Shown: positions 10,046 to 28,514 of the stretch, piece after piece
Position numbering within the stretch: position 1 is the stretch's first letter
Layout: every line of letters begins with the position of its first letter
NCBI RefSeq assembly: GCF_000008645.1
Contig: NC_000916.1
Location: 420,001 to 452,000, forward strand
Reading direction: 5' to 3'
DNA: 32,000 nucleotides
Origin: Methanothermobacter thermautotrophicus str. Delta H
GTDB taxonomy: Archaea > Methanobacteriota > Methanobacteria > Methanobacteriales > Methanothermobacteraceae
Translations under genes and position numbers: made by a program
Notes under the pieces: model-generated
Told to the model about the DNA's origin: nothing
Databases searched by the model: none
The model's input: only the letters and a program-made list of their open reading frames with translations

Positions 10046-10952
10046 AGATAGCAGAGGTCACATGGGGGATGAGGAGCGCCATGTTGATGATGTCCTCACG
10101 GTTGTGCTCAACCAGGGGGACCAGGGGCCCTGGGCTGCCGGTTGAGATGTAGGTCCTGTAGTAGTCCGGGACGTGTGAGCCGGGTATGTCAAGGTCCCTC
10201 TCAGCACCCAGGATATGCCTCTCCACCGTTGACAGTTTACAGTCAGGGAGTGTGTGCCCCCAGAGTCGCCTTGAAATATGGTATAGGTCCACGTGACAGT
10301 TTTCAAGACTGTTTTCAAGGCCATGGACGGCTGACCTCCTCCTTATGTAGGGGATGTCGAAGCTTGCACCGTTGAAGGTTACGATGATGGAGTCTGGTGG
10401 TATGTGGTGGTAGATCTCAAGGACAGCCCCCTCCATTTCAGGTGCCGGTGCCAGGCGCTGCCTCACATTCATCACCCCATCCTCAATCCATGCCATGCCT
10501 GTGAGTATGACCGGCGCCCCTCCAAGGCCCAGGGTCTCGATGTCCAGGAAGGTGAATCTCTCCTCATCCACAAGACCAAGCGCACCCAGAACCCTGTAAT
10601 CAGAGGATGAACAGTTCAGGTAGCCCCTGATCCCAGGGAAGTCCCCTGAATCAATGAGATCAAGGATGCGTGCTGCCTCCTCCCGGTAGATCTCATGTTC
10701 CAGGAGGTCCTCGATGGTATGGTAGCCCTCAGATTTCAGCATCCTTTCGGTTATGGAACCAACACCCCTCAGCAGTTTCAGATCAGAGAGGATGTGGGGT
10801 CTGACATCAGACCTCCTCAGCTTCACCCTCCTCTCATGGGATATCTCCAGGGCCTCAGAGCCTGCAGCGGTCACCCTGGACGCATCAAAGGTCTCCTCGA
10901 GTGATGCGCCATCATATTCTGTTACGAGATCCCATTTGAGTTTTTCAAGCAC
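10041..10952 (-). CDS. mrfB: RNase H-like/DnaQ-fold exonuclease with N-terminal HhH (YprB/MrfB-like)
   Basis: The motifs FLDIETLGL (Exo I), NGASFDIPYI (Exo II) and EHNREDIINM (Exo III-like), plus LRGVGSITERML (HhH), are present. The gene sits immediately downstream of the YprA/MrfA-like helicase with a 41-nt gap, as in the B. subtilis yprA-yprB arrangement. Confidence 0.7.
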   Translation of the reverse strand: MLEKLKWDLVTEYDGASLEETFDASRVTAAGSEALEISHERRVKLRRSDVRPHILSDLKLLRGVGSITERMLKSEGYHTIEDLLEHEIYREEAARILDLIDSGDFPGIRGYLNCSSSDYRVLGALGLVDEERFTFLDIETLGLGGAPVILTGMAWIEDGVMNVRQRLAPAPEMEGAVLEIYHHIPPDSIIVTFNGASFDIPYIRRRSAVHGLENSLENCHVDLYHISRRLWGHTLPDCKLSTVERHILGAERDLDIPGSHVPDYYRTYISTGSPGPLVPLVEHNREDIINMALLIPHVTSAIC

Positions 10953-10993
10953 ACTATACCTCCAGCATCATCCTTCAATTTTTCAGCCCCGGA

Positions 10994-13462
10994 CTATGAG
11001 CCGTTCATGGCCCTCTCATGGAAGTAGGCCGCCATCTCAACCTCCCCCTGCCTTCTGAGTATTTCCCCCATCAGGTAGCATGCCCCTGGATTTCCAGGGT
11101 CCCTCTCAAGGACCTCATGTAGCCTTAACTTGGCATCCAGGAGGTTACCCTCACTGCAGAGCTCCTCCACCCCTGCGAGGACATCCCCATCAACCTCACT
11201 GGCCTCCCTGACCTCACCCGAGGTCTGCTCCATGAGGTACTCCAGTATCTTCACCGTCGCATCCCTGTGGAGCGGCGAGTTCTCGTTGCCGCACTTTGGT
11301 GAGTAGATACATGATGGGCAGCCCTCGGTGCAGCTGCAGGATGATACAAGTTCAAGGGTCGATGCCAGGAGGTCCCCGAAGACCTCAACACCCTTCTCTG
11401 CAAGTCCTATTCCGCCCTCGAAGCCGTCATATATGAATATAGTGGCCTCCTGTGTGTCCGGGTGCATGGGTGTGGATATGCCCCCGATATCACTCCTGTC
11501 GCAGAGGACGTGGAGGGGGAAGAGGGATATGAGGGCGTCTTCAGCCCCATGTATTCCCCCGTGGAAGGCATCCCCACCGTACATCTCCTCAACCTCATCC
11601 CTGAGGGAGTCTGGGATGGTGAACCAGAGGGCCCTGGTCCTGAACCTGAGTGGTGGGAGGTCAAGTTCCCTTTTACCCAGGACCCTGCTGTAGCTCATTA
11701 CCCTGTATCCTGTGTAGTGCTCGGTCACCTCAACCTCGCCGAAGTTAACCTCAAGGTCCCCCAGTCTCCGCTGCCGGAGCTTCCTTATAATCCTGAGCTC
11801 GGTGTCCCTGAGGACACTGGTATGGTACTCAACGTCCCTCCTGTCAACGATTATCCTCCTGCCTTCAAGGTCAAAGTCCCGTACGGTGTAGGTGTTGCCG
11901 TGGTTCATGAGCACCGCACCCTCATGGGCCTCCCTGTAGGCCTGGGAGCGGCTCATGGTCTCAAGGACGCGGCCCTCACAGATGACCGTGAAGGTGTCCT
12001 GGGAGACGTCATCGAGGCCGTACCTGAACTGGGGGTCGCCGCTGCAGGTGAGACCATCTGGTGCCAGTTCAAGCTCCCCATCAGCAAGCATCTCCCCTGC
12101 AACACCCACGCTGAAGTCGTATTCCAGGAAGTCATCCAGGATTAAGGGCAGCTCGGAGGCCGCGCATGCAGTCTGGTTCCTCAGTATCAGCCTGTTCTGG
12201 AGGTCTATTATTGCATTCTCATGGGGCCTCTCAAAGATGAATGAGGGGTTCTTCATGATGTACTGGTCCAGGGGGTTCTCGAAGGCCACCAGGATCACCA
12301 TGGAGTCCTTCAGGTTCCTCCCGGCCCTCCCGGCCTGCTGCCAGGTCGATATCATGGTCCCGGGGTAACCAGATATTATGACGGCGTCCAGTGAACCTAT
12401 GTCTATGCCGAGCTCCAGGGCATTGGTTGCAGTGACACCCAGGAGCCTCCCCTCCTTGAGGTCGGCCTCTATCCTCCGCCTCTGCTCTGCAAGGTAACCT
12501 GCCCTGTAGGACGTCACCCTGTCAACGAGTTTGCGGTTCTCCCTATCAAGCTGCTCCCTCGTCCAGCGGGTTACAAGTTCAGCCATCTTCCTTGAGATGG
12601 TGAAGCAGAGGGTCTGCACGCCCCTCAGAACAAGGTATGAGAGTATGGCTGAGGTTTCAAGGTGCGCTGAGGGGTCACCCCTCTTCCTGTAGGGGTTGTA
12701 GAGTATGAAGTGCTTCGGACCTGAGGGTGAAGTGTCATCCGAGATCACCCTGAAGTCAAGGCCTGTGAGTTTACGTGAAAACTCGGCAGGGTTTGCCAGG
12801 GTTGCGCTTGCAAGGACGAACTGGGGCTCTGAGCCGTAGTACCTGCAGATCCTCCGCAGCCTCCTCAGGAGGAGGGCCACGTTGGAGCCGAAAACCCCCC
12901 TGTACTGGTGGGCCTCATCAATCACCACGTAGCGCAGGTTACTGTAGAACCGCCTCCACTGGTGATGCCAGGGGAGTATGCGGTGGAGCTGGTGGGGGTT
13001 GGTGAGTATCACCCTGGAGTTCTCTCTTATCCAGGGCCTCCGCTCCCTGGGTGTGTCACCATCATAGGTTGACGGGTTGAGTTTGAGTCCGAGCTCTGAC
13101 TCCAGCTCCTCCAGGACCCCGAGCTGGTCCCTTGAGAGGGCCTTGACAGGGTATATGTAGAGGGCCGTTGCATCAGGGTTGAGGGTGAGGGTCTCCATGA
13201 TGGGGAGATTGAAGGCCAGTGTCTTCCCGGAGGCCGTGGGGGTTGTTATGAGGATGTTCATCCCCTCCCTTATGGCGTCGAGGGCCTCCCTCTGGTGGCG
13301 GTAAAGCCTTATACCCCCTGCATCCAGGTAGTCCCGGATGTTATCAGGGATGTCTGTGGAGTCAGAGTACCTTGCTTCACGGCCAGGGATTGTCTCCACG
13401 TGTTCTATGGCATCCCTGAACCGCCAGTCCCTCCTGAACCTCTCAAGAACCCTTTTAACCAT
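10994..13462 (-). CDS. mrfA: DEAD/DEAH-box SF2 helicase with C-terminal DUF1998 (MrfA zinc-binding) domain and TPR-like tail (YprA/MrfA-like)
   Basis: Helicase motifs present are TPTASGKTLAF (I), VVIDEAHQYRG (II), SATL (III) and TNALELGIDIG...QQAGRAGR (V/VI). The DUF1998 cysteine cluster is CSCTEGCPSCIYSPKCGNENSPLHR. The C-terminus LLDAKLRLHEVLERDPGNPGACYLMGEILRRQGEVEMAAYFHERA is TPR-like. Confidence 0.85.
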   Translation of the reverse strand: MVKRVLERFRRDWRFRDAIEHVETIPGREARYSDSTDIPDNIRDYLDAGGIRLYRHQREALDAIREGMNILITTPTASGKTLAFNLPIMETLTLNPDATALYIYPVKALSRDQLGVLEELESELGLKLNPSTYDGDTPRERRPWIRENSRVILTNPHQLHRILPWHHQWRRFYSNLRYVVIDEAHQYRGVFGSNVALLLRRLRRICRYYGSEPQFVLASATLANPAEFSRKLTGLDFRVISDDTSPSGPKHFILYNPYRKRGDPSAHLETSAILSYLVLRGVQTLCFTISRKMAELVTRWTREQLDRENRKLVDRVTSYRAGYLAEQRRRIEADLKEGRLLGVTATNALELGIDIGSLDAVIISGYPGTMISTWQQAGRAGRNLKDSMVILVAFENPLDQYIMKNPSFIFERPHENAIIDLQNRLILRNQTACAASELPLILDDFLEYDFSVGVAGEMLADGELELAPDGLTCSGDPQFRYGLDDVSQDTFTVICEGRVLETMSRSQAYREAHEGAVLMNHGNTYTVRDFDLEGRRIIVDRRDVEYHTSVLRDTELRIIRKLRQRRLGDLEVNFGEVEVTEHYTGYRVMSYSRVLGKRELDLPPLRFRTRALWFTIPDSLRDEVEEMYGGDAFHGGIHGAEDALISLFPLHVLCDRSDIGGISTPMHPDTQEATIFIYDGFEGGIGLAEKGVEVFGDLLASTLELVSSCSCTEGCPSCIYSPKCGNENSPLHRDATVKILEYLMEQTSGEVREASEVDGDVLAGVEELCSEGNLLDAKLRLHEVLERDPGNPGACYLMGEILRRQGEVEMAAYFHERAMNGS

Positions 13463-14150: not shown

Positions 14151-14201
14151 ACTGAGGGATACCCTCAGGGAGATGATCAGGAAGAGATGAGGTGTGCATT
14201 C

Positions 14202-14708
14202 ATGAAGAAGTATATTTTAATTGTGATGCTTGCCCTGATGGTTGCGGGCTGCGTCTCTGAGGATGGTAACTACACATACAATGAGGGTGTCCAGGACAGC
14301 AATGTGGACAATCCTGTTAATGATTCATGGACCAGCGACTCCCAGGATAAGGTTAACGATACTGCTGAGAAAAAATCCAGTTATGAGGCATCAGGCAGCT
14401 GTTACCATGTGGTTGACGGTGACACCATAGACGTTGAGGGCGTCGGGAGGATACGCCTGGTAGGGGTTAACACCCCTGAACGTGGACAGCCAGGCTACAG
14501 GGAGGCGAAGGACTTCGTGAAGTCCATGTGCCTTGGAAGAACAGTCCAGCTGGACATCGATGATGCTAAAAGACACGACAGGTATGGGAGGGTCCTTGCA
14601 GTTGTCTACGTCGACGGTGTCAACCTCAACAGGGAGCTTCTCAGGCGCGGCTATGCCGAGGTAATGTACATACCACCCTCTGAGTTTAACCCATATGGGT
14701 GGACATAA
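14202..14708 (+). CDS. Secreted/lipoprotein staphylococcal-nuclease (SNase/thermonuclease) homologue
   Basis: MKKYILIVMLALMVAGC is a signal peptide with a lipobox-like Cys. The SNase core reads VVDGDTIDV...IRLVGVNTPE...EAKDFV...DRYGRVLAVVYVDGVNLNRELLRRGYA. A GAGGTG SD lies 8 nt upstream of ATG 14202, which I prefer over 14187. Confidence 0.8.
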   Translation: MKKYILIVMLALMVAGCVSEDGNYTYNEGVQDSNVDNPVNDSWTSDSQDKVNDTAEKKSSYEASGSCYHVVDGDTIDVEGVGRIRLVGVNTPERGQPGYREAKDFVKSMCLGRTVQLDIDDAKRHDRYGRVLAVVYVDGVNLNRELLRRGYAEVMYIPPSEFNPYGWT

Positions 14709-14773: not shown

Positions 14774-16015
14774 ATGTCAGATGTTGTGTTGATTGACATA
14801 TTTGCAGGTGCGGGGGGGCTTACTGAAGGTTTCCTTCGGAGTGATTATACATTCGTTTCACATATTGAGATGGACAGGGATGCGATTCAGACACTGGAGA
14901 CAAGGGGACTCTATCATCACCTGCAGAGCGATGGTGACCCCGAGGATTACACCGAATACGTTAATGGTGAGATAGGACGTGAAGAACTATTCAGAAGATA
15001 TCCTGACTTTGACAGTGAACTGTACATGAACCTTGAACTCACAGAGGAAAACGTGGACAGGGTCATAGAGACCATCAGGTCAAAGATGAATGATATGGGG
15101 ACAGTTTCTGTTGATGGCATAATAGGTGGGCCTCCATGTCAGGCGTACTCATATGCTGGCAGATCCCGGAAGAACATGGAAAAGGACAGGAGAAACTACC
15201 TCTACCTCCTGTACATTAAATTCCTGAAAGAATTCCAGCCGGAATTCTTTGTATTCGAGAACGTCCCCGGGATGAAGTCAGCGCAAAGGGGCCACATACT
15301 ATCTGATTTCCAGAGGAAGGTAACAGACCTGGAATATAAACTTGACTTTGAAGTGCGTGATGCATATAACTTCGGGGTCCCTCAGAGGAGAAGGAGGATC
15401 ATAGTCATCGGCCACCGCATGGAAGATAAAAGGATACAGTTTGATGAGGAGAGGTATGCCGGTACAGTGAATGACATCCTATGTGATCTGCCCGCCCTTG
15501 AACCCGGCCAGGGCACAGACGGGCCCCAGGAATATAGATCCAGACCATCACGCCTCCTGAATGAGATGGGTATAAGGACAGAGAATGATATTCTCCGACA
15601 TCACCAGGCGCGAAGACACAACCCGCGGGACCGCGAAATTTACAGGAGAACAATTGACGCATGGAACTCAGAGAGGAGAAGATTAAAATATACAGAACTT
15701 CCACCGGAACTCAGGACACACAGGAACACCAGGAGCTTCCTTGACCGTTACAAGGTGGTTGCAGGGGACCTCCCCTATTCCCATACCATTGTCGCGCATA
15801 TATCAAAGGATGGACACTACTACATCCACCCCGACAGAGAACAGGCCCGTTCTCTGACCGTAAGGGAAGCTGCAAGGATCCAGTCCTTCCCGGATAACTA
15901 CATATTTGAAGGATCCATGACCTCAAAGTACCGGCAGATAGGAAACGCCGTGCCTCCACTAATGTCTGAGAAGATTGCCCGCAAACTTTATGAAATCTAC
16001 AGGGGGGACCTCTGA
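14774..16015 (+). CDS. drmMII: DNA (cytosine-5)-methyltransferase (Dcm family; DrmMII-like position)
   Basis: All core motifs are present: DIFAGAGGLTEGF (I), GGPPCQAYS (IV, 15125-15151), ENVPGM (VI), QRRRRIIVIG (VIII), RSLTVREAARIQSFPDNY (IX) and QIGNAVPP (X). A variable target-recognition region of roughly 120-130 aa lies between VIII and IX. Confidence 0.92.
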   Translation: MSDVVLIDIFAGAGGLTEGFLRSDYTFVSHIEMDRDAIQTLETRGLYHHLQSDGDPEDYTEYVNGEIGREELFRRYPDFDSELYMNLELTEENVDRVIETIRSKMNDMGTVSVDGIIGGPPCQAYSYAGRSRKNMEKDRRNYLYLLYIKFLKEFQPEFFVFENVPGMKSAQRGHILSDFQRKVTDLEYKLDFEVRDAYNFGVPQRRRRIIVIGHRMEDKRIQFDEERYAGTVNDILCDLPALEPGQGTDGPQEYRSRPSRLLNEMGIRTENDILRHHQARRHNPRDREIYRRTIDAWNSERRRLKYTELPPELRTHRNTRSFLDRYKVVAGDLPYSHTIVAHISKDGHYYIHPDREQARSLTVREAARIQSFPDNYIFEGSMTSKYRQIGNAVPPLMSEKIARKLYEIYRGDL

Positions 16016-16137
16016 TTTCTGAAAAGGATCTGCTGCTTGATATTCATACCAGAATCTGCGAATGGGGAAAAAAGAATTTAAGGAAATTTCCCTGGCGCGA
16101 AAGAAGAGATGACTATGGAATTCTGCTGGCTGAAATA

Positions 16138-16665
16138 ATGCTTCACAGAACACGCGCAGAACAGGTGCTTGAAATTTATGAAAACTTTGTTGAAAAATTT
16201 CCTGATTTTAAATCGGTGTGTGAAGCGGGACAGGAAACAATAGAAAAAGAAATGGAGTCCCTTGGTCTCAGATGGAGAGCCAGAAATCTCCATAAACTCG
16301 CATGTGAGATTGAAAGCAGACACGGGGGGGCTGTTCCAAAAAACAAAAATGATCTCCTTGAACTTCCAGGCATTGGGAACTACATTTCCTCGGCGTTTTT
16401 ATGTTTTTCCAAAAATATTCCAGAACCCCTTCTGGACACGAACACCGTCAGAATCATTGGTAGATTGTTTGATCTTGAGATCAGTGATTCATCCCGCAGA
16501 AAAAAGGATTTTGAAACAGTAATGAGGAAAATTCTTGAATTTGGTGACTGCAGACACCTTTCACTATCGATGATCGATTTCGGAGAGGCTGTGTGCAGAG
16601 CTAGCGATCCCCTCTGCCATGAATGTCCCCTGAAACTATCATGCAACTTTTACAGGAGATGTTAG
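16138..16665 (+). CDS. mig: HhH-GPD superfamily DNA glycosylase with [4Fe-4S] loop (EndoIII/MutY/Mig.Mth-like). Coordinates start at the first canonical start codon; the conserved frame is open from 15994.
   Basis: LLELPGIGNYISSAF is the HhH-GPD hairpin, LLDTNTVRIIGR matches vDtN..R with the catalytic Asp, and CRASDPLCHECPLKLSC is the Cx6Cx2Cx5C cluster. Upstream, in the same frame with no ATG/GTG/TTG, the sequence reads ..LISEKDLLLDIHTRICEWGKKNLRKFPWRERRDDYGILLAEIM-LHRTRAEQV. This is the conserved N-terminal helix region of this family. Confidence 0.85.
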   Translation: MLHRTRAEQVLEIYENFVEKFPDFKSVCEAGQETIEKEMESLGLRWRARNLHKLACEIESRHGGAVPKNKNDLLELPGIGNYISSAFLCFSKNIPEPLLDTNTVRIIGRLFDLEISDSSRRKKDFETVMRKILEFGDCRHLSLSMIDFGEAVCRASDPLCHECPLKLSCNFYRRC

Positions 16666-16666
16666 A

Positions 16667-19600
16667 ATGAGAAAAACAATGATTGAAGAGGTAATAAAGG
16701 AGGTGCTGGGACCACGAAGTGGCCCTGAGGAATCCATTAAAGGGGACCCCTACGATGAGTATATAACCGGTGTTATCATCCCCGCCGGATGGAGTCCCGC
16801 CATAGAAATGGGTGCTGCTGACCCCGATTCTGAAAATGTGAATACAGACATTGTTTCATCAGGAGAGGATGATGATTCTGATTATGAAAGCTCTGTATTA
16901 TCAGGACCATTCACACGGCCCAGATCATTTGGTATTTCATTCATGGCACCCGCCGGTGCAAAGGAAATGGATATCTGTGTCACGTGGGGTCGATACACCA
17001 GATCCGATGATGAGAAAATGTGGAAGAGAAAAGGCCATTTCTGCATCAAAAAATTTTCACTTGAGGAGGATAACACCCGTGAATGCATCTACCGGGAAGA
17101 TGATGGCAGCATAACGATCAATGTTATGATCAGGGAGGACGGAAACCGTAAAAACGTTAGGGTGATTCTTGTAAATGAACTTAAGGTCGCTCGAAGTGCT
17201 TACAGACCTGAAACAGCCTCCTGCATTTTTCAGCCATCCATTCGCATTAACGTTGAAGACCGTCCGGAAACTTCAGATGCCCCTGATGACTACAGAGATG
17301 AGATGAATTTCATTTACAGAAACAGAAAGATTGATGTGATGGGAATTCAATGCTCTGCAGTATCAAAATCATGTGAATACTCACATAACCTCAATGAGTC
17401 TATTTTATGGCCTGATGGTCTTAATCTGGCTGAAAAATTCCCTGAAATTGAAAATTTCAGAACTCCTGACTTCAGAACAGAATTTGTACCTCTCTATCCC
17501 AGTCCGATGCCATCCTTTGATGTGGAAGGGGTTGATGAACTTTCTGCAGAGAAACTTTCAGAGGCATGGAATTCCAGTTCAATTTCAGAGATAGTGAACC
17601 CCCTCATAGATGCATATGAAAGGTGGATAGAATGCAATAAAGGAATCCAGAAGTCAATGGATGGCAAAAATAAAAAATTTGCATCCGGTATAATCAAAAA
17701 ACAGGAAGAAGCGCTGAAAAGACTTAAAAATGGATTGGAAATCCTCATGGATAATGAGAAAGCAAGGCTCGCATTCTGTTTTGCAAACAGGGTCATATCA
17801 CTTCAGCATCAGTGGAGCCGGCAGGGTGATGATTTCCTCTGGAGACCATTCCAGCTCGCATTTTTTCTCATGAACATCGAACCCATATTCAATCCTGAAT
17901 CAGAATATCGTGATGTTCTGGATCTCCTCTGGATACCAACCGGGGGTGGGAAAACAGAGGCCTATCTTGCCATAATAGCATTTACGATGTCTCTTCGCCG
18001 TCTTAAAGGTTCCATCGGCTCAGAAAATATCCAGAGATGCTATGGAACAGCAGTTATATCAAGATACACCCTGCGCCTCCTCACCGTGCAGCAGTTCAGA
18101 AGGACCCTGAGAATGATAACAGCGGCGGAGTATCTGAGAGTTTTCATATGCGACAGCGGTCTCAGGGGATGGAGACCCTCCAACTGTGATATAAAAGAGG
18201 ACTGGTTATATGGTTCTGTGAGGTTCTCCGCTGGCCTATGGGTAGGTGGCGCCGTGTCTCCACTTCATCTGAGAATAAATAAAGGGGCCATTGACATCAT
18301 GACCTCCTCCGGGGATGGTGGGAATGAAAGTGAGCCGGCCCAGGTCATCAGGTGCCCCGCATGCAATTCATGGTTGAGTCTGCCGGATTCTTCAGAGAGC
18401 TCCCTGCCTGCCCATGATAACACAATAATCACCGTGGTCCAGAAAAAGAAGACAGACCTCAGCTTTGAGCCTTCAGAACTCAAAAAAATGTTTCCTGAAA
18501 TCAGAGAAATCAGAACTTGCAGGGACAACCTCAGGGAGAACCATGAAACACTCATCATAAAATTTGATGAAAGAGATATGGACATCCCCCGGATATCAGA
18601 GATCATGAAAGAACTTGAGAATCACTTTGAGTTCTCATCACTGAGCTGGAGAAGACCCGGCTACTTTGGAAGCTCCTTTGATAAAGGGAGGAGGAAAAAG
18701 AAATATTCAGACTTTGAAATATGGTGTCCCAATCCGGACTGTCCTCTGAATAAGGATGTTGACTGGGCGGAGGGTGTTCCCTCAGATGAGGAATCGGAGT
18801 TTCCCGATGGAAATGCCAGAAGAAAGTTTGAGAGTCCTTTTATAGAAAACAGAAGAATTCCTGTTCCTGCCTACACTGTTGATGAACAGGTATACTCAAG
18901 GTGCCCCACAGTTATAATAAGCACTGCTGATAAGATTGCGAGACTCTCCTTTGAGCCAAAGGCAGCAGCCATCTTCGGAAATGTTGATAAATTCAACATA
19001 TTTTATGGTTATCACAGGGATGGGCTATATCCCATAAACACGACAAAGAGTAGTGAAGCCCATGACACTGACGTGGAAGGGTTTCTGCCCCCTGAACTGA
19101 TAATACAGGACGAACTCCACCTCCTTGACGGTCCCCTCGGAAGCATCTTTGGAATCTATGAGGCATCCGTGGAATCTCTCATATGGCGTGGAGGGCTGAG
19201 ACCAAAATATCTTGCATCCACGGCAACGATAAACAACGCACATGATCAGGTCAGACTTCTCTTTGGAAGGGATCTGTTCCAGTTCCCGCCACACGGCCTT
19301 GAAATAGCAGACTCATTTTTTGTTAAGGAAGAGGATCCCGGTGATGCATGGGATGAACGGATTAGCGGAAGAATTTACATGGGAATCGCCGCACCCGGAA
19401 GAGGTCCGATAACTCCCCAGATAAGGCTATGGTCCCGTGTTCTCAAAACATCTGCGGAAAACACAGGCAACGAAGCCATCAGATATTACTGGACCGTTGT
19501 CGGATACTATAATTCCCTGAGGGAACTTGGAGGTGGGATTGCATTTTACAGGGAGGACGTTGTTGAGAGGTTAAAGGAGATTTCCGTGGATGATCCTCGT

Positions 19601-20374
19601 GATATAGATCCCGACCCGCTGGAACTTTCAAGCAGGATTGATTCAACTGCCCTGCCCCTTGTACTTGACAGAATAGAACGCGACGGAGAACAGCCGGGAG
19701 TCCCGGCATATGATGCCATTTTCACAACATCAATGTTCGGTACCGGTGTGGATGTGCCTCACCTTTCACTCATGATTGTCAGCGGTCAGCCAAAGACAAC
19801 AGGATCCTACATTCAGGCCACAGGGAGGATCGGGCGAAGACGGGGAGGTCTTGTCCTGACATTTCTGAATGCTTCAAGACCCCGGGACATGAACCACTAT
19901 GAAATGTTCATGAGGTATCATGCGAGAATTCATGAAAGCGTTGAATCTGTTTCAGTTTCACCCTATTCCGATGGGGCATTAAATAGAGCCCTTGGACCAG
20001 CGACCGTCGCATTTCTCAGAAACATGCCACTGGCCCGTGTTAACTGGACAGAAGAAGATGGTAAGGTCATATTATCCGGAGAATCCTCTGAAGATATTCA
20101 TTATCTGCAGGAATCCCTCACAAACCGGCTTGATAAAATATTTAACAGAAAAGAGGATGTGGAAATAATTGAAAATTTCCTTGAAGAGTGCATCAAAAAA
20201 TGGAGATCTGTTGCGGAAGAAGTCAATGAACTCCGATTTTCAGAGTACATAACCAGACAACACAACGTGGTCCTTGGCACTCCATCGCATGAATATAAAA
20301 ACCTCAAGACAGTTTTCAGAAATGCTCCAAATTCACTGAGGGATATTGAGGAAACAACAGGTTTCAGGGTGTAA
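16667..20374 (+). CDS. drmA: DISARM DrmA-like large SF2 helicase (1235 aa)
   Basis: Helicase motifs are WIPTGGGKTEAYL (motif I, 17936-17959), IIQDELHLL (DExH, 19109-19120), STAT, and FGTGVDVPHLSLMIVSGQPKTTGSYIQATGRIGRR (V/VI). There is a long N-terminal region and split zinc-ribbon-like pairs CPAC (~18350) and CPNPDC (~18725). AGGAGA lies 8 nt upstream, 1 nt separates it from the glycosylase stop, and a DUF1998 gene follows immediately. Confidence 0.8.
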   Translation: MRKTMIEEVIKEVLGPRSGPEESIKGDPYDEYITGVIIPAGWSPAIEMGAADPDSENVNTDIVSSGEDDDSDYESSVLSGPFTRPRSFGISFMAPAGAKEMDICVTWGRYTRSDDEKMWKRKGHFCIKKFSLEEDNTRECIYREDDGSITINVMIREDGNRKNVRVILVNELKVARSAYRPETASCIFQPSIRINVEDRPETSDAPDDYRDEMNFIYRNRKIDVMGIQCSAVSKSCEYSHNLNESILWPDGLNLAEKFPEIENFRTPDFRTEFVPLYPSPMPSFDVEGVDELSAEKLSEAWNSSSISEIVNPLIDAYERWIECNKGIQKSMDGKNKKFASGIIKKQEEALKRLKNGLEILMDNEKARLAFCFANRVISLQHQWSRQGDDFLWRPFQLAFFLMNIEPIFNPESEYRDVLDLLWIPTGGGKTEAYLAIIAFTMSLRRLKGSIGSENIQRCYGTAVISRYTLRLLTVQQFRRTLRMITAAEYLRVFICDSGLRGWRPSNCDIKEDWLYGSVRFSAGLWVGGAVSPLHLRINKGAIDIMTSSGDGGNESEPAQVIRCPACNSWLSLPDSSESSLPAHDNTIITVVQKKKTDLSFEPSELKKMFPEIREIRTCRDNLRENHETLIIKFDERDMDIPRISEIMKELENHFEFSSLSWRRPGYFGSSFDKGRRKKKYSDFEIWCPNPDCPLNKDVDWAEGVPSDEESEFPDGNARRKFESPFIENRRIPVPAYTVDEQVYSRCPTVIISTADKIARLSFEPKAAAIFGNVDKFNIFYGYHRDGLYPINTTKSSEAHDTDVEGFLPPELIIQDELHLLDGPLGSIFGIYEASVESLIWRGGLRPKYLASTATINNAHDQVRLLFGRDLFQFPPHGLEIADSFFVKEEDPGDAWDERISGRIYMGIAAPGRGPITPQIRLWSRVLKTSAENTGNEAIRYYWTVVGYYNSLRELGGGIAFYREDVVERLKEISVDDPRDIDPDPLELSSRIDSTALPLVLDRIERDGEQPGVPAYDAIFTTSMFGTGVDVPHLSLMIVSGQPKTTGSYIQATGRIGRRRGGLVLTFLNASRPRDMNHYEMFMRYHARIHESVESVSVSPYSDGALNRALGPATVAFLRNMPLARVNWTEEDGKVILSGESSEDIHYLQESLTNRLDKIFNRKEDVEIIENFLEECIKKWRSVAEEVNELRFSEYITRQHNVVLGTPSHEYKNLKTVFRNAPNSLRDIEETTGFRV

Positions 20375-20376
20375 AT

Positions 20377-22113
20377 ATGATGAATAACGTGCAGCATCTT
20401 AGAAGATCCCAGTTCATATTCACCTATGGACCTGGAGCCATACTGGAGGGAAAGAACGGGCCCGTGATGATCCCTTCACTCAACGACGGCCTGGGAAACT
20501 ATTTTGGAATAGAATATCTTGAGAAGTTTGAGATTAAGGATAGCAGGCTTTCAGAGTTTCTCCGGAAAAATAAAGAGATTGATGGAACCATACGGCTATT
20601 TTCACTGCCCACCAATGCCGCCCTCTCCCTTGATGAAAACCGTCACATCTACAATACATGGCGGTTTCCCCGCTGGAAAATATGCTATGGAAGAACAGAA
20701 GGGGGACACCAGAATCCCGTCCTTTATTATGAACGTGAAGGGAAAGGCTGCCCCATATGCGGGTCAAGGAATGCCTCAGCCACCCGATTTGTGGCTGCGT
20801 GTCCTGACGGACATCTTGATGATCTGCCATGGAAATATCTCGTTCACAGTAAAGAAACCGGGTGCAATCCAGAATACTTTCACTGGAAAATTGAGGGACC
20901 ATCAATTGCGGATATAATAATTAAATGTCCGGAATGTGGACAATCATCTTCCATGAGATATATTTACAGAAAAAAATTCCGCTGCACAGGCAGACTTCCT
21001 GAAAGATCAGGGCTCCGTTCAAAGGAATCATGTGAACTTGAAATGAAGATTCTTCAGAGACAGTCAACCTCCCTCAGAATACCCGTAACACTGACCCTTC
21101 TGAAAATTCCCTATAAAACCAAACTGGATGAAATACTGGAGAACGATCCAGAATTCAGGGGTAACCTGCGCGGTATTATAAACCATGCAAATAAAGAAAA
21201 TCTGCTTTCAGACGTTAAGCAGAACAAAAGAAAATATTATGACACCGTTAAAGGGAGTATTGAGGACATGGGTTACAGAAGATTCTGTGAACATGTAATG
21301 GGATTCAATAGCAGGATGATAGCAGATCCCCTTGGAGATGAATTCCGGGCCCTCAGAGAAATGCGAACATCTGAAACACTATCAGTGGGAGAGCCTGTGA
21401 AATTTTCTGTTGATTCTCAGATTACCCTCAAAATTGTTCCTGTTGAAAAATTGAAGCTTACAACTGCTCAGATTGGATACTACAGGAGCCCTTATCTTAA
21501 AAAGGACGAAAATTCAGAGATAATTCCGTCAAATATTGTGAGTACAGGTGAAAGGGAAGCAATTTCCGAGTCATGGTGGTATCCTGCGTTTGAGAGTATG
21601 GGAGAGGGTCTGTTCATAACAGCGGATAGAATAGCCCCGGAATCTTCATCCTTAAATGCGCTGCAGGAGTGGGATGAAAGAAAATTGATTCATGACGAAA
21701 TTCTGAGACAGAACACACCTGTGAGTCCAGAATTTGTGTGGTGGCATACACTTTCACATTCCATTATACAGGCCCTCTCGTTATATGCAGGCTATTCATC
21801 ACCCTCAATAAGAGAAAGAATTTACACAGACTCCGGAGGCGCCGGTGGCATTCTCCTTTATTCATCATCGATTGGAGATGATTGCAGTATGGGAGGTCTC
21901 TCTGGATGTGCTTCAGAATCAAAATTTAAGGAGATATGGAAAATAGCAATGAATAATATTGAATTCTGCTCCAACGATCCGATATGTCATCAGAATCGGA
22001 TTTCAGATGGAAATTACAACGGATCCGCATGCCACCGCTGCCTGATGCTATCAGAGACATCATGTGAACACAGGAACAGGTGGCTGGATAGGCATGCTGT
22101 TCTTGGAGATTGA
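20377..22113 (+). CDS. drmB: DISARM DrmB-like DUF1998 protein (578 aa)
   Basis: The N-terminus RRSQFIFTYGPGAILEG is typical of DUF1998 proteins. Internal cysteine pairs are CPICG...CPDGH and CPECG. The C-terminal DUF1998 cluster is CSNDPICHQ...GSACHRCLMLSETSCEHRNRWLDR (21967-22071). It starts 2 nt after the DrmA-like stop. Confidence 0.8.
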   Translation: MMNNVQHLRRSQFIFTYGPGAILEGKNGPVMIPSLNDGLGNYFGIEYLEKFEIKDSRLSEFLRKNKEIDGTIRLFSLPTNAALSLDENRHIYNTWRFPRWKICYGRTEGGHQNPVLYYEREGKGCPICGSRNASATRFVAACPDGHLDDLPWKYLVHSKETGCNPEYFHWKIEGPSIADIIIKCPECGQSSSMRYIYRKKFRCTGRLPERSGLRSKESCELEMKILQRQSTSLRIPVTLTLLKIPYKTKLDEILENDPEFRGNLRGIINHANKENLLSDVKQNKRKYYDTVKGSIEDMGYRRFCEHVMGFNSRMIADPLGDEFRALREMRTSETLSVGEPVKFSVDSQITLKIVPVEKLKLTTAQIGYYRSPYLKKDENSEIIPSNIVSTGEREAISESWWYPAFESMGEGLFITADRIAPESSSLNALQEWDERKLIHDEILRQNTPVSPEFVWWHTLSHSIIQALSLYAGYSSPSIRERIYTDSGGAGGILLYSSSIGDDCSMGGLSGCASESKFKEIWKIAMNNIEFCSNDPICHQNRISDGNYNGSACHRCLMLSETSCEHRNRWLDRHAVLGD

Positions 22114-22146
22114 GGATCTGAACTGATCAGAAATGGTGGTGAATAG

Positions 22147-25062
22147 ATGGAGCCTGCATATTACTATCATGATTATCCCGTGTGTCCAAACTGCAAAGAA
22201 CCTGTGATCACAGGAGCTCCCCTGCTGATTGAGGATGATGGAACATTTAGGTGTTCCTCCTGCGACGCCTTTTTCAGTCCTGCGGTGCATCTTCCGGAAA
22301 ATGAAGGGGTACATGAATTCCTGACGAAAAATCTGAAAGAACCTCCCAGTGAGGAACTGCCCCTTATCTGGCCCATAAAAAATAACGTGATTGAAAAATC
22401 ATATCTCAGCTGGCTTCCCAATATCAGTGAAGGAAAGTACCTGATAACATGGCCATGGAGGAATATCAGGTTCCTCCCAGTTCTAATCTGCGAGTGCCTC
22501 AGGGTTAAAGGAGATGCCAAGATCGTTGTGATCGGTGAGATCAATACCGGTGAAAGTAAAAATGAGCTGGGTTTTCCTGACCCCTTTTCAGCGCTCGGAA
22601 GCCTCCAATACATTGAAGATATGTCTAAGATGGATTCAGGTGATCTCAGAAATCTTAGAAGATTATTAAAAATAGACAGAAAAAATGTATTCAAAAAGAA
22701 AAAAAAGATCCATTACAGAATAAAGGATTCAAAGAACAGACATACGACAGAAATATCAGTATACAGACCAGAAATGACCATTAGAAAATGCATAAACCGC
22801 ATTTTAAAGTACTATAAGAATTTATATGGAATGAATGCTGTAAGGAGTATAACCCAGAAGGATGGGAAGGGTGATAAAAGAATTAAAAAACTGAAGGATG
22901 AAGGAATAATCGCCATAAGCATTGAAGAAAGGGAAGAATGGACGGGCAAAAAACTCAATTTTCCGGTATCTGACCTTTTTCATGTAATACTGAATTATGA
23001 TAACTTAACACGTTTTAAAGATCACTTTAAGTATGATTGCATAACAGATGTCAGGGATACAGATACTTCAGACAGTTCCGTGGTTTTTATCTCACAGACC
23101 CTGGAACCAGAAAAACTCTTTGGCATCGTTGAAGAATGCAACCCAGATATTGTATTTTTCACAGATTCAGATTATTTCGTCAATGAAAGGCTTTTCAACG
23201 GTAGGAGGTGGCAAAAATTCAGAGAATTTCTTCGTTCAACAGAGTGTACTGTTCTGATGTTTTCACTCAGACCCGACAGCAGACACCTGTACAGAGACCT
23301 TCAGGACAGCTTCACATGGCACACCTGGGATTGCATACCCATTCTTGACATACTGACCGGAGATGAAGATCATTCAAGACCATCCCCATTTTCATCATCA
23401 TTCAGTGAAATATCTGTCCCGGGGATTAATGCTGAGATAGAGTACATCCATCTCGAGGAGATTGATAGAATAGAAGAAATCTCCGAAAAGATCCTGAAAA
23501 TAGATAACGGTAAAAATGTGCGCCGTTATCTAAAATATCTTCCTCAGACACCTCTCAAGCTCCGCGGCCCACACAATTATTCAAATGGTGGCTGGGTCAT
23601 TGATAACATTCTGAATCAGATCCTGGATACACCAATCTTTGACGAGGTGAAAAACACATTCGAAGAGGTTTATTCAATTTCATCGGGCCCCCAGAGAAAC
23701 CCCATACTGAACTCCGTGAAAGAAATCATTGAAGCGGAACTTTCAGAGGATGACAGAAAATCTATATTCATAGCTTTAAGATCATCGCGGGAAACAAAGA
23801 GCCTGAAAAAAACTTTTGAAATTGATGAAGAGAATCCTGATGTGCTTGATGCTGTTGATATATGCACCTGGAATGATCTCCCCACCCACCATGGGGAAGG
23901 TCCCTCAGTGGTAATAGCAACTTCATATCCACCCATCGGATACTCTCTGAATGATACAGATATAGATAAATTTTACTTCATAGGAGGATCAACAGCCATT
24001 GAAAAAATAAAATCAGTAGTTAACAACAGAATCACAGAGCAGATTACAAAACCTCTTCACATTCCATCAAGAAAAGAAAGAGCGCCCGAACTTCTCTTTG
24101 AGATTACAGGAAAAATTCATGTTCCTGAAACCGTTAAAGAAGATATCCTAGAGTTTGAAAGATCCATTGAATCAGGATCATATTCAAAGATATCGAATTC
24201 GTATGGGAAAACCTATAAAAAGCGTGCGAGAACAATAAGAGCAGGCACTGAATGTGTGCTTGTGATCAATGAAATGAATTGTGGAATGTTCATACCATCC
24301 CACAGGCTTCTTTTCTTTAAGGATGAAACTGTCGACAGGATCGAACACATCAGAGCCGGTGATAAACCTGAAAATCTTCAGAACAGGACTCTTTTACTGG
24401 ATGAACATGGATTCTATACATCATTCAAAGTCCTTTTCACCAGATTCATGATAGAAATTGCCCCAAACCTGAAAATAAAACGTTCCTACTACACCTGGAA
24501 CGGCTTCAAAGAACTTGTGGATGACTCATATGAATGGTTAAGGAACATCCGAAATGCCATGAAGAAGCTTATGGATGCCCGTGACTGGAATGAAAACAGG
24601 GCAAAGGATTACCTATCAGAATATCTTGTTAAATATGATCTCAACGCCAGAAACCCCGAGTATATAAGAGATCACTGGCTGTCGGATCCAGATATCATAC
24701 TGACGTCGGAGGGTCATGTTCCAGTTTTTGATGTCGAGCACCCCAAGGGAATTTCAGATGTTGAAAAAATATACAGGGCTCTGGATGAACTATTTCCTGA
24801 AATGTGTCTTGATGATGAAAAAGCAAGAAGATCATACATTGCATCACGGACTCTTCAGAAACTGAGAAGAAAATTTTTAACTGATGAAAAGCAATCGCTG
24901 CATCAACGGTACCACAGATTCCATGACGAGCTCTGGAAAGAAATAAATTACGTCCTTAAACGTTCCGATAAATTTAAAATAAAGGATGCCAGAATTGTTA
25001 AGGTCAAGATAGATTCGCCATCCATGAAAATACTTCAAGATTATAAGAGGTATATAACATGA
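22147..25062 (+). CDS. Large uncharacterised protein (971 aa) with N-terminal zinc ribbon; last gene of the DISARM-like operon
   Basis: The intact 971-aa ORF has a GGTGGTGA SD 5 nt upstream and starts 33 nt after the DrmB-like stop. CPNC-x20-CSSC forms a zinc ribbon at residues ~13-40. Two alpha/beta-looking regions follow (KIVVIGEI, VVFISQT, DIVFFTDSDY, TVLMFS; later SIFIALRS, VVIATSYP, FYFIGGS), with no Walker A and no HKD motif. The C-terminus is helical and K/R/E-rich. I recognise no family. Confidence 0.75.
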   Translation: MEPAYYYHDYPVCPNCKEPVITGAPLLIEDDGTFRCSSCDAFFSPAVHLPENEGVHEFLTKNLKEPPSEELPLIWPIKNNVIEKSYLSWLPNISEGKYLITWPWRNIRFLPVLICECLRVKGDAKIVVIGEINTGESKNELGFPDPFSALGSLQYIEDMSKMDSGDLRNLRRLLKIDRKNVFKKKKKIHYRIKDSKNRHTTEISVYRPEMTIRKCINRILKYYKNLYGMNAVRSITQKDGKGDKRIKKLKDEGIIAISIEEREEWTGKKLNFPVSDLFHVILNYDNLTRFKDHFKYDCITDVRDTDTSDSSVVFISQTLEPEKLFGIVEECNPDIVFFTDSDYFVNERLFNGRRWQKFREFLRSTECTVLMFSLRPDSRHLYRDLQDSFTWHTWDCIPILDILTGDEDHSRPSPFSSSFSEISVPGINAEIEYIHLEEIDRIEEISEKILKIDNGKNVRRYLKYLPQTPLKLRGPHNYSNGGWVIDNILNQILDTPIFDEVKNTFEEVYSISSGPQRNPILNSVKEIIEAELSEDDRKSIFIALRSSRETKSLKKTFEIDEENPDVLDAVDICTWNDLPTHHGEGPSVVIATSYPPIGYSLNDTDIDKFYFIGGSTAIEKIKSVVNNRITEQITKPLHIPSRKERAPELLFEITGKIHVPETVKEDILEFERSIESGSYSKISNSYGKTYKKRARTIRAGTECVLVINEMNCGMFIPSHRLLFFKDETVDRIEHIRAGDKPENLQNRTLLLDEHGFYTSFKVLFTRFMIEIAPNLKIKRSYYTWNGFKELVDDSYEWLRNIRNAMKKLMDARDWNENRAKDYLSEYLVKYDLNARNPEYIRDHWLSDPDIILTSEGHVPVFDVEHPKGISDVEKIYRALDELFPEMCLDDEKARRSYIASRTLQKLRRKFLTDEKQSLHQRYHRFHDELWKEINYVLKRSDKFKIKDARIVKVKIDSPSMKILQDYKRYIT

Positions 25063-28505: not shown

Positions 28506-28514
28506 TGATCACCG

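What the first reader, a model, noticed from the sequence alone, without database searches (positions are those of the whole stretch)
16138..16665. Mig/EndoIII-type glycosylase inside a defence operon: 5mC-deamination repair or anti-viral effector?
The protein has the HhH-GPD hairpin, the vDtN..R catalytic segment and the Cx6Cx2Cx5C iron-sulfur loop. It resembles in layout the T/G-mismatch glycosylase Mig.MthI of Methanobacterium thermoautotrophicum THF plasmid pFV1. That enzyme is encoded next to the GGCC m5C R-M system MthTI and counteracts 5mC deamination at high temperature (Horst and Fritz 1996). Linkage to a DISARM-type MTase would extend that 'MTase brings its own repair' logic to DISARM. 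An alternative is that the glycosylase acts on invader DNA, because glycosylases such as Brig1 are now known to act as defence effectors.
Basis: partly seen in the sequence, partly recalled or inferred. Interest (0 to 1): 0.65.

Follow-up and report, generated by a model that had tools for sequence, protein, structure and literature searches.

The report
Methylase-linked T:G mismatch repair glycosylase
A small DNA-repair enzyme sits directly behind the cytosine methylase of an archaeal anti-virus (DISARM) operon, most likely to fix the C-to-T damage that methylation causes; this is a known logic in a context where I found no report of it, and the gene's start is mis-annotated.

Summary
The glycosylase is real, but its coordinates are short. 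The window is Methanothermobacter thermautotrophicus Delta H, where this gene is annotated as a 175-aa "endonuclease III-like protein". The homologous coding region starts at least 126 nt upstream, at about 16012/16015. Those 42 codons are under the same purifying selection as the rest (dN/dS 0.135 vs 0.121), hold pocket residues (F26, R29, E41), and contain no ATG, GTG or TTG.

The protein is neither EndoIII nor MutY. It is a single-domain iron-sulfur HhH-GPD enzyme carrying the Mig.MthI specificity residues. A family profile matches Mig.MthI (1kea) best among solved structures.

In every related locus where the neighbouring gene is visible, the glycosylase abuts or overlaps a C5 cytosine methylase. 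That pair occurs in DISARM operons with or without the DrmC nuclease, in GHKL-Z1-DUF4420-AIPR cassettes, and near Type II restriction-modification genes on plasmids. Other DISARM loci have a Vsr endonuclease beside the methylase instead. No DrmA locus without a visible C5 methylase has the glycosylase, apart from two cut at a contig end.

This favours repair of 5-methylcytosine deamination over an anti-viral effector role, and it is not limited to thermophiles. No activity was tested. It is a new member of a known kind, of moderate interest.

The parts
14774..16015 (+). DrmMII, the C5 cytosine DNA methyltransferase of the DISARM operon (413 aa). Its stop TGA lies at 16013-16015.
   Evidence: Pfam DNA_methylase 1.1e-60. 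PADLOC DrmMII 9.2e-162 over the full length. The exact sequence is AAB85001.1 of M. thermautotrophicus Delta H.
15990..16017 (+). Methylase/glycosylase junction. It holds an ATG at 15990-15992 that is 1 nt out of frame with the glycosylase, a G6 run at 16002-16007 (AGGGGGGA, Shine-Dalgarno-like), and the candidate near-cognate starts CTG 16012-16014 and ATT 16015-16017. The ATT shares its A with the methylase stop codon.
   Evidence: Sequence read. Strain alignment: G6 in Delta H, T plus G6 in CP064337-type strains, G5 in contig L115. With G5 the ATG is in frame and gives a 231-aa protein, MKSTGGLLISEK.... In other lineages an ATG sits at or within a few nt of the methylase stop.
16012..16665 (+). 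Mig-like HhH-GPD/[4Fe-4S] DNA glycosylase. This is the full homologous coding region, about 217 aa, with stop TAG at 16663-16665. The annotated 175-aa product starts at ATG 16138.
   Evidence: N-terminal homology. (dN/dS 0.135 upstream, 0.121 downstream). (1kea and MutY matches). (mutY 168 bits against cutoff 286; nth 65 bits against cutoff 212).
16087..16158 (+). N-terminal pocket segment: FPWR (F26, R29; 16087-16098) and EIMLHRTRA (E41, R46, A49; 16132-16158). F26, R29 and E41 lie upstream of the annotated Met.
   Evidence: Residue mapping onto Mig.MthI F27, R30, E42, R47 and A50. Roles of these residues are taken from PMC2714593.
16363..16452 (+). HhH hairpin LPGIGNY, with Y124 in the position of the EndoIII catalytic Lys, followed by the Asp loop LLDTNTVR (D142, N144).
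   Evidence: Y, D and N are invariant in 34 of 34 family members.
16564..16644 (+). L185, which corresponds to Mig L187 and MutY Q182, followed by the iron-sulfur loop C195-x6-C202-x2-C205-x5-C211.
16667..20374 (+). DrmA, long form (1235 aa). It starts 1 nt after the glycosylase stop.
   Evidence: NCBIfam NF038326 at 1417.7 bits (cutoff 999). PADLOC DrmA E = 0.
20377..22113 (+). DrmB (578 aa, MZB/DUF1998 zinc-binding domain).
   Evidence: NCBIfam NF038324 at 438.8 bits (cutoff 240). PADLOC DrmB 9.5e-171.
22147..25062 (+). Conserved 971-aa protein of unknown family. It is the last gene of the operon and is found after DrmB or DrmC in related loci.
   Evidence: No Pfam, NCBIfam or PADLOC match. 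Homologues occupy the same position in L001, L008, L009, L011, L012, L018, L019 and L026. An AlphaFold model (pLDDT 74) resembles RIG-I/Hef-type SF2 helicase cores only weakly (E 6e-5, TM at most 0.29) and shows no recognised nuclease fold.

Best explanation
The gene encodes a monofunctional, iron-sulfur HhH-GPD DNA glycosylase of the Mig type.

**Proposed mechanism (inferred, not shown).** The DISARM methylase DrmMII makes 5-methylcytosine in host DNA. 5-methylcytosine deaminates to thymine, faster at 65 C, and leaves T:G mismatches. Because thymine is a normal base, this needs a dedicated enzyme. The glycosylase would flip out and excise the T, or a U, opposite G. Host AP endonuclease, polymerase and ligase would then restore C:G. 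The enzyme would therefore pay the mutational cost of carrying a cytosine-methylating defence system, as Vsr does for Dcm and Mig.MthI does for M.MthTI.

**Gene organisation (shown by comparative genomics).** The methylase and glycosylase form a two-gene module with overlapping or abutting reading frames. This module is exchanged between different restriction cassettes.

**The Delta H allele (expression route inferred and unresolved).** The full-length enzyme of about 217 aa has no canonical start. I infer that it is made at a low level by one of two routes:
- Coupled re-initiation at ATT 16015 or CTG 16012, behind the G-rich Shine-Dalgarno-like run.
- Slippage on the G6 run.
For: **1. Family.**
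- A profile of the family matches Mig.MthI (1kea) at 2.5e-60 and 207 bits, ahead of MutY at 183 bits and EndoIII at 91 bits or less.
- The protein has a single domain and stops 1 nt before drmA, so there is no MutY C-terminal domain.

**2. Specificity residues.** PMC2714593 names these as the residues separating T/G from A/G preference:
- Window A49 and L185 correspond to Mig A50 and L187; MutY has V and Q/E.
- F26 and R46 correspond to Mig F27 and R47; MutY has L and Q.
- Y124, E41, D142 and N144 are conserved.
- Across 34 family members: R46 34/34, Y124 34/34, A49 31/34, and position 185 always hydrophobic.

**3. Linkage to the methylase.**
- 16 of 16 genome loci with a glycosylase at least 40% identical have a C5 methylase immediately upstream.
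- 4 of 4 further contigs show the same.
- Among 80 DrmA loci from metagenomes, 16 carry the glycosylase next to a C5 methylase. The gap is -24 to 156 nt, and in L033 the gene in between is a second C5 methylase.
- Start and stop codons overlap or lie within 9 nt in 15 of 17 lineages.

**4. Modularity.**
- The pair stays together when it sits after DrmC or on the other strand (L038, L057, L058, L072, L100).
- In L010, L013, L015, L016 and L020 the same gene layout follows the pair, and in L020, the one scanned, it is HATPase_c_3 - Z1 - DUF4420 - AIPR instead of DrmAB.
- On plasmids, mig lies near the MthTI restriction-modification genes (pFV1), and a homologue sits beside a C5 methylase and a PLD restriction enzyme (pCALKR01).

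**5. Displacement by a different repair enzyme.**
- Vsr sits next to the C5 methylase in DISARM loci L032, L042 and L047.
- Vsr sits elsewhere in L069, L071 and L105.
- The E. coli dcm and vsr genes overlap in the same way.

**6. Restriction to C5 methylases.** None of the DrmA loci without a visible C5 methylase has the glycosylase, apart from two where it lies at a contig end.

**7. Independence from DrmC.** The glycosylase co-occurs with the PLD nuclease in L026, L027, L030, L035, L036 and others, so it does not stand in for a missing nuclease.
Against: - No activity was measured. T:G specificity is inferred from residues, and PMC2714593 itself shows that swapping these residues into MutY does not create T:G activity.
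- The NJ tree does not resolve whether the family is closer to Mig.MthI or to MutY. Family monophyly has 63% bootstrap, and family plus Mig has 4%.
- The target sequence of this DrmMII is unknown.
- Many Bacillus- or gut-type DISARM loci have a DrmMII 47-49% identical with neither Mig nor Vsr. A repair partner is therefore optional.
- In Delta H the canonical ATG is out of frame. The allele could be weakly expressed or off.
Confidence: 0.75

Rival explanations
1. The glycosylase is a defence effector or sensor. It would excise bases from invading DNA, either unmethylated or carrying modified bases, creating abasic sites that block replication or recruit DrmAB. This would resemble Brig1 or the PabI restriction glycosylases.
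For: - The Delta H operon has no DrmC/PLD nuclease and no other recognised nuclease.
- Glycosylases are established defence effectors, and inactivated EndoIII domains serve as sensors in END nucleases (PMC12191111 and its reference 60; PMC10273834).
- The gene is tightly embedded between drmMII and drmA.
Against: - The gene tracks the methylase, not DrmAB. It also occurs with a different cassette (GHKL-Z1-DUF4420-AIPR) and near Type II restriction-modification genes.
- It co-occurs with DrmC in many loci.
- It is replaced by Vsr, a pure repair nickase, in sister loci.
- Its pocket residues are those of a mismatch-specific enzyme, and such an enzyme has no evident way to tell invader DNA from host DNA.
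Confidence: 0.08
2. In strain Delta H, and in most sequenced Methanothermobacter strains, the gene is an off or decaying allele. A 1-nt change at the G-run has disconnected the ATG, so only the 175-aa N-terminally truncated protein, or nothing, is made. That product lacks F26, R29 and E41 and is probably inactive.
For: - There is no ATG, GTG or TTG between the upstream stop and Met 16138.
- A sibling contig with G5 instead of G6 restores an ATG-initiated 231-aa ORF.
- Three different junction states exist among strains.
- There is no frameshift-stimulating RNA structure downstream (z = +0.65).
Against: - The 42 upstream codons have dN/dS 0.135 over dS 0.89, between lineages that both lack the in-frame ATG. 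That is not expected for long-untranslated sequence.
- The clusters of the two ATG-less annotated products list 83 contig records, against 1 for the G5 form. The G5 contig begins exactly at that ATG, where assembly errors are common.
- CTG-AT(T/C) preceded by a G-run of at least 5 is conserved in all four versions.
- A Heimdallarchaeota homologue also lacks a canonical start.
Confidence: 0.15
3. It is a housekeeping EndoIII or MutY base-excision enzyme that happens to lie in a defence island.
For: The public annotation calls it "endonuclease III-like protein" or "A/G-specific adenine glycosylase". The best NCBIfam hit is mutY.
Against: - It falls below both curated cutoffs: mutY 168 bits against 286, and nth 65 bits against 212.
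- It has no MutY C-terminal domain.
- It has Tyr rather than Lys at the EndoIII catalytic position, and Ala/Leu rather than Val/Gln at the MutY specificity positions.
- Adjacency to C5 methylases holds across at least ten phyla.
Confidence: 0.02

Closest known systems
Mig.MthI, the T/U:G mismatch glycosylase of Methanothermobacter plasmid pFV1 (PDB 1kea; Horst and Fritz 1996)
   Same: - Single domain of about 220 aa with an HhH-GPD fold and a C-x6-C-x2-C-x5-C cluster.
- Same pocket residues: F27, E42, R47, A50, Y126, D144, N146, L187.
- Encoded near a C5 cytosine methylase of a defence system.
- Same host genus.
   Different: - Only 31-33% identical.
- It does not group specifically with the new family in the NJ tree.
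- mig is on a plasmid, separated from the GGCC Type II restriction-modification genes by another ORF and on the opposite strand. Here the gene is chromosomal and translationally coupled to the methylase inside a DISARM operon.
Vsr very-short-patch repair endonuclease with Dcm (E. coli)
   Same: - Same proposed job, repair of T:G from 5-methylcytosine deamination.
- Same gene logic, a small gene overlapping the 3' end of the C5 methylase.
- Vsr occupies the equivalent place in other DISARM loci and in GHKL/AIPR restriction-like operons (PMC2292703).
   Different: The fold and chemistry are unrelated. Vsr is a restriction-endonuclease-fold nickase that cuts 5' of the T. The protein here is a base-excision glycosylase.
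MutY adenine glycosylase
   Same: The catalytic domain is 25-31% identical, with the same fold, iron-sulfur cluster and Asp/Asn/Glu residues.
   Different: It has no C-terminal 8-oxoG-recognition domain. The V45 and Q182 equivalents are Ala and Leu. It falls below the TIGR01084 cutoff.
Class 2 DISARM (DrmMII, DrmA, DrmB, DrmC, DrmE; Ofir et al. 2018)
   Same: DrmMII, DrmA and DrmB are full-length matches to the curated models.
   Different: - It carries an extra glycosylase gene.
- DrmA is the long form.
- There is no DrmC in Delta H.
- The 971-aa last gene matches no PADLOC model at all.
- I found no paper that mentions a glycosylase in DISARM. The Ofir paper itself could not be read here.

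Membership tests
Mig-type T/U:G mismatch glycosylase (Mig.MthI-like) | Single-domain HhH-GPD fold of about 220 aa with a C-terminal [4Fe-4S] loop and no extra domain | tested here: met
   About 217 aa. Pfam HhH-GPD. C-x6-C-x2-C-x5-C at 16594-16644. 1kea aligns over residues 5-219.
Mig-type T/U:G mismatch glycosylase (Mig.MthI-like) | Specificity residues A50 and L187, plus F27, R47, Y126, E42 and D144 | tested here: met
   The window has A49, L185, F26, R46, Y124, E41 and D142, which are conserved across 34 relatives. Roles are taken from PMC2714593.
Mig-type T/U:G mismatch glycosylase (Mig.MthI-like) | Genetic linkage to a C5 cytosine methyltransferase | tested here: met
   Adjacent in all informative loci.
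Mig-type T/U:G mismatch glycosylase (Mig.MthI-like) | Specific phylogenetic grouping with Mig.MthI | tested here: inconclusive
   The profile prefers 1kea (207 vs 183 bits). The NJ bootstrap for family plus Mig is only 4%, and deep nodes are unresolved.
Mig-type T/U:G mismatch glycosylase (Mig.MthI-like) | Excision of T and U opposite G, without AP-lyase activity | not testable with these tools
   This needs enzyme assays. The absence of a Lys at the Y124 position predicts a monofunctional enzyme.
MutY (A/G-specific adenine glycosylase) | C-terminal NUDIX-like 8-oxoG domain, V45/Q182-type pocket, and a score above the TIGR01084 cutoff | tested here: not met
   The protein ends at residue 217, and drmA starts 1 nt later. 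It has Ala and Leu at the two positions. It scores 168 bits against a cutoff of 286.5.
Endonuclease III (Nth) | Catalytic Lys in the HhH motif (bifunctional lyase) and a score above the TIGR01083 cutoff | tested here: not met
   It has Tyr at that position. It scores 64.6 bits against a cutoff of 211.7 and is 19% identical to E. coli Nth.
DISARM class 2 operon component | Encoded in one operon with DrmMII, DrmA and DrmB, and conserved there across lineages | tested here: met
   Gene gaps in the window are -4 to 33 nt. The glycosylase is present in 10 of 16 genome loci with DrmAB. It is present in 15 of the 24 metagenomic loci whose DrmA matched the query full-length at E = 0. These 15 include one weak hit at a contig end (L031) and the L053 fusion. 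It is not universal in DISARM and not exclusive to it.
REBASE/PADLOC 'Type II nicking endonuclease' model PDLC03398 | Full-length match to the profile | tested here: met
   2e-37, residues 26-223 against profile positions 21-219 of 221. I could not check which sequences the model was built from.

The most novel reading that the evidence does not exclude
The methylase/glycosylase junction may be a recoding or switch site. The conserved G-run, where three reading frames meet, would set how much full-length glycosylase is made. Candidate routes are near-cognate re-initiation, +1 slippage from ATG 15990, or -1 slippage from the methylase frame, which would give a methylase-glycosylase fusion of about 73 kDa. 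This would tune a potentially mutagenic repair enzyme to the methylase level. A natural HhH-GPD/C5-methylase fusion next to DrmA (L053) shows that physically coupled forms exist.
Probability: 0.2. Interest if true: 0.6.

Novelty: new member of a known kind. Interest (0 to 1): 0.42.

Why it matters
**A hidden cost of defence.** Defence systems that mark host DNA with 5-methylcytosine raise the C-to-T mutation rate. The data suggest that a large branch of DISARM carries its own T:G repair gene: at least 18 of the 24 loci closest to this DrmA have either this glycosylase or Vsr. The methylase-plus-repair pair also moves between different restriction cassettes. Tools such as PADLOC could count the gene as an accessory component of DISARM.

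**Annotation.** In M. thermautotrophicus Delta H the gene has been annotated as a truncated "endonuclease III-like" protein. The likely full-length product lacks a canonical start codon. That is a concrete test case for non-canonical initiation or slippage in a methanogen that, from memory, now has genetic tools.

Tried and rejected
- **Conserved programmed frameshift from the methylase.** Rejected as a general mechanism. The glycosylase frame is -1 relative to the methylase in Delta H and CP064337, but +1 in L001 and L115. No structured RNA follows the G-run.
- **Thermophile-only association.** Rejected on the host list.
- **Glycosylase as a substitute for the missing DrmC nuclease.** Rejected, because the two co-occur in many loci.
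- **Phylogeny.** An NJ tree with Mig, MutY, Nth and crenarchaeal homologues separated EndoIII clearly. It left the Mig/MutY/family branching unresolved. A first bootstrap run timed out.
- **Methylase target prediction.** PDB matches cover only the catalytic core, as in M.HaeIII and DNMT1, so nothing can be said about specificity.
- **The 971-aa protein.** It has no family hits even at E = 5. The fold search gave only weak SF2-helicase-like matches.
- **Literature.** No paper held here links DISARM with a glycosylase, and nothing mentions MTH495 or MTH496. Ofir et al. 2018 and Makarova et al. 2011 could not be read.
Full report
**Source and context**

The window is from Methanothermobacter thermautotrophicus strain Delta H.
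- The 971-aa ORF is 100% identical to a Delta H protein.
- The methylase, glycosylase and helicase products are AAB85001.1, AAB85002.1 and AAB85003.1.

The finding lies in a defence island. Its genes, in order:

| Coordinates | Strand | Gene |
|---|---|---|
| 5085-9189 | - | split DUF4011/AAA_11/AAA_12/MTES_1575 helicase-nuclease |
| 10041-13462 | - | MrfB-like and MrfA-like genes |
| 14187-14708 | + | secreted-type SNase |
| 14774-16015 | + | DrmMII C5 methylase |
| about 16012-16665 | + | the glycosylase |
| 16667-20374 | + | DrmA, long form |
| 20377-22113 | + | DrmB |
| 22147-25062 | + | conserved 971-aa protein of unknown family |
| 25073-26824 | - | 583-aa protein with BrxP/BrxC-like segments |
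| 26865-30218 | + | McrBC-like pair |

Gaps between the genes from the methylase to the 971-aa protein are -4 to 33 nt, so they form one operon.

**Checking the observation**

The HhH hairpin, the LLDTNTVR Asp loop and the four-cysteine loop are all present at the stated place. The ORF has clear homology and is under purifying selection.

The start coordinate is wrong.
- The frame is open from 15994.
- The 42 codons before Met 16138 align with the N-termini of homologues that are 215-240 aa long.
- Against an 83%-identical relative (L001), these 42 codons have dN/dS 0.135 at dS 0.89. The rest of the gene has 0.121.
- Differences concentrate at third codon positions (4/5/16). The excess of synonymous change has P = 1.5e-4.
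- Only the first codon or two overlap the methylase, so dual coding does not explain this.

The upstream stretch encodes F26, R29 and E41. These are the counterparts of Mig.MthI F27, R30 and E42, which line the base pocket. The annotated 175-aa product would lack them.

**The start problem**

Between the upstream stop and Met 16138 there is no ATG, GTG or TTG.
- All Methanothermobacter versions conserve a G-run of at least 5, followed by (N)3-4-CTG-AT(T/C).
- In Delta H the methylase stop TGA (16013-16015) shares its A with ATT 16015.
- In L008, L012 and L020 an ATG shares one base with the methylase stop in the same way; in L009 and L018 it follows within 1 nt. Other lineages have ATGA overlaps or gaps of at most 9 nt.
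- The run AGGGGGGA lies 7 nt before ATT. It could pair with the CCUCC anti-Shine-Dalgarno sequence. This is my inference, not a tested result.
- An ATG at 15990 is 1 nt out of frame in Delta H and gives MKSTGGTSDF*.
- In one JGI contig with G5 instead of G6, that ATG is in frame and gives a 231-aa protein. That contig starts exactly at the ATG, so an assembly error at the contig end cannot be excluded.
- The clusters of the two ATG-less annotated products list 83 contig records, against 1 for the G5 form.
- The frame relation to the methylase differs between strains, and there is no downstream RNA structure (z = +0.65). A classical programmed frameshift is therefore unlikely.
- A Heimdallarchaeota homologue also lacks a canonical start. 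It follows the methylase TAG in the same frame.

I conclude that the N-terminal extension is coding. How it is initiated in Delta H is unresolved.

**What the protein is**

- NCBIfam places it below the curated cutoffs for both MutY (168 vs 286.5 bits) and EndoIII (64.6 vs 211.7 bits).
- As a single sequence it matches Bacillus MutY (2e-39) and Mig.MthI (1.6e-37) about equally.
- A profile of 11 family members prefers Mig.MthI: 207 bits, against 183 for MutY and 91 or less for EndoIII.
- The protein ends 1 nt before drmA, so it has no MutY C-terminal domain.

Residue mapping, with the roles summarised in PMC2714593:

| Mig.MthI residue | This window | MutY | EndoIII | Conservation in 34 relatives |
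|---|---|---|---|---|
| A50 | A49 | Val | | 31/34 Ala |
| L187 | L185 | Gln/Glu | | always hydrophobic |
| F27 | F26 | Leu | | F or Y |
| R47 | R46 | Gln | | 34/34 |
| Y126 | Y124 | Ser (E. coli), Tyr (Bacillus) | Lys | 34/34 |
| E42, D144, N146 | E41, D142, N144 | same residues | | invariant |

The absence of a Lys at the Y124 position predicts a monofunctional glycosylase.

In an NJ tree the 34 methylase-linked sequences form one clade with 63% bootstrap. They are clearly separate from EndoIII (19% identity). The order of Mig.MthI, MutY and this clade is unresolved.

**Comparative genomics: loci found through the glycosylase**

- A scan of one genome per species returned 16 loci with a glycosylase at least 40% identical.
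- All 16 have a C5 methylase immediately upstream. Ten also have DrmA and DrmB.
- Hosts span Methanobacteria, Methanoperedens, ANME-1, Methanosarcina, Bathyarchaeota, Heimdallarchaeota, Thermoplasmatota, Archaeoglobales and Chloroflexota. Many are mesophiles or cold-adapted.
- Four more contigs show the same adjacency. Two of them are complete DISARM operons that also contain the DrmC PLD nuclease.
- In five "pair-only" loci the same gene layout follows the pair. In L020, the one scanned, it is HATPase_c_3 - Z1 - DUF4420 - AIPR. Operons with GHKL ATPases and AIPR proteins were reported to contain cytosine methylases and Vsr-superfamily endonucleases (PMC2292703). Z1 and DUF4420 genes have also been described next to a Dcm-like methylase (PMC5379612).

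**Comparative genomics: loci found through DrmA**

I scanned metagenomes with a DrmA alignment and kept 80 loci.
- 41 loci show a C5 methylase.
- 16 of these have the Mig-like gene adjacent. The pair stays together even when it is relocated after DrmC or onto the other strand.
- One locus has an EndoIII-like HhH-GPD domain fused to the methylase in a single 666-aa ORF (L053).
- Three have Vsr adjacent to the methylase. Three more have Vsr elsewhere in the locus.
- The rest, mainly loci in which DrmMII is followed by an SNF2 helicase, have neither.
- No locus without a visible C5 methylase has the glycosylase, except two where it lies at the contig end.
- Among the 24 loci whose DrmA matched the query full-length at E = 0, 15 have an HhH glycosylase. 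These 15 include one weak hit at a contig end (L031) and the L053 fusion. Three more have Vsr.

On plasmids, mig of pFV1 lies near the MthTI methylase and restriction genes. A Caldicellulosiruptor plasmid has a homologue beside a C5 methylase and a PLD restriction enzyme.

**Interpretation**

The glycosylase follows the C5 methylase, not the helicase or nuclease part of the system.
- It co-occurs with DrmC rather than replacing it.
- An unrelated T:G repair enzyme, Vsr, takes its place in sister loci.
- Its pocket is of the Mig type.

This points to repair of 5-methylcytosine deamination at the methylase's own sites. The methylase and repair gene form a mobile two-gene module. The overlap of the two genes mirrors dcm-vsr in E. 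coli.

An effector or sensor role cannot be excluded without experiments. It is somewhat more thinkable in Delta H, whose operon has no recognised nuclease:
- There is no DrmC or Vsr homologue in the window.
- The 971-aa protein models (pLDDT 74) as a weak SF2-helicase-like fold.

Even so, the distribution data argue against it.

**Novelty**

The principle dates from Mig.MthI/M.MthTI and Vsr/Dcm. PADLOC already carries a matching profile, labelled as a Type II "nicking endonuclease".

I did not find the following in the literature available here:
- That a large branch of class-2-like DISARM carries this glycosylase.
- That the same module serves GHKL-Z1-DUF4420-AIPR cassettes.
- That the Delta H gene is mis-annotated at its 5' end.

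I rate it a new member of a known kind, of moderate interest. The junction and start question is the most unusual element.

Noticed in passing
window 15990-16017; L115 1-40; L002 9853-9880: A G-run at the methylase/glycosylase junction differs between strains: G6 in Delta H, T plus G6 in CP064337-type strains, G5 in one JGI contig. It decides whether ATG 15990 is in frame with the glycosylase. This may be a slippage or phase switch, or the G5 may be an assembly error at a contig end.
   Followed up: partly
L053 5922-7922: A single 666-aa ORF fuses an EndoIII-like HhH-GPD/iron-sulfur domain, with Lys at the catalytic position, to a C5 methylase. It sits directly upstream of DrmA in a DISARM locus. 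This is an independent, physically fused version of the glycosylase-methylase pairing.
   Followed up: partly
L020 8556-15845 (same gene layout in L010, L013, L015, L016): A methylase-glycosylase pair about 50% identical to the window's is followed in L020 by HATPase_c_3, Z1, DUF4420 (PD-(D/E)XK) and AIPR genes instead of DrmAB. The four other loci show ORFs of the same sizes and order but were not scanned. The pair is therefore shared between two different defence cassettes.
   Followed up: partly
L014 4440-4560: In a Heimdallarchaeota genome bin the glycosylase ORF follows the methylase TAG stop in the same frame, with no canonical start codon. A GGAGGAG lies just upstream. This could be read-through, a non-canonical start, or an assembly error.
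   Followed up: no
window 22147-25062: A conserved 971-aa last gene of the operon has no Pfam, NCBIfam or PADLOC match, even at E = 5. Only 8 homologues turned up in 5.8 billion proteins by word search. An AlphaFold model (pLDDT 74) gives only weak RIG-I/Hef-like SF2 helicase matches. It takes the place after DrmB or DrmC in related loci.
   Followed up: partly
window 20377-25062: The Delta H DISARM operon has no DrmC (PLD) gene between DrmB and the 971-aa gene. Relatives L026, L027, L030 and L051 have one there.
   Followed up: yes
window 5085-9189 (- strand): The DUF4011/AAA_11/AAA_12/MTES_1575 helicase-nuclease is split into 204-aa and 1157-aa ORFs in this window. In strain CP064337 and in a metagenome contig it is a single ORF of about 1591 aa. 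A frameshift or stop in Delta H is likely.
   Followed up: no
window 14187-14708: A staphylococcal-nuclease homologue with a lipoprotein-type signal (MKKYILIVMLALMVAGC) lies just upstream of drmMII. It is conserved there in Methanothermobacter strains but not in other lineages.
   Followed up: no
window 26865-30218; L009 10761-13999: A McrB-like AAA_5 protein plus a DUF2357/PDDEXK_7 McrC-like pair lies next to the DISARM operon, both here and in a Methanobacterium bog genome bin. This fits the reported association of DISARM-like cassettes with McrBC (PMC12458937).
   Followed up: no
window 16663-16690: In the CP064337-type allele the glycosylase stop TAG is CAG. The ORF runs 7 codons further (QNEKNND) and overlaps the drmA start.
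   Followed up: no
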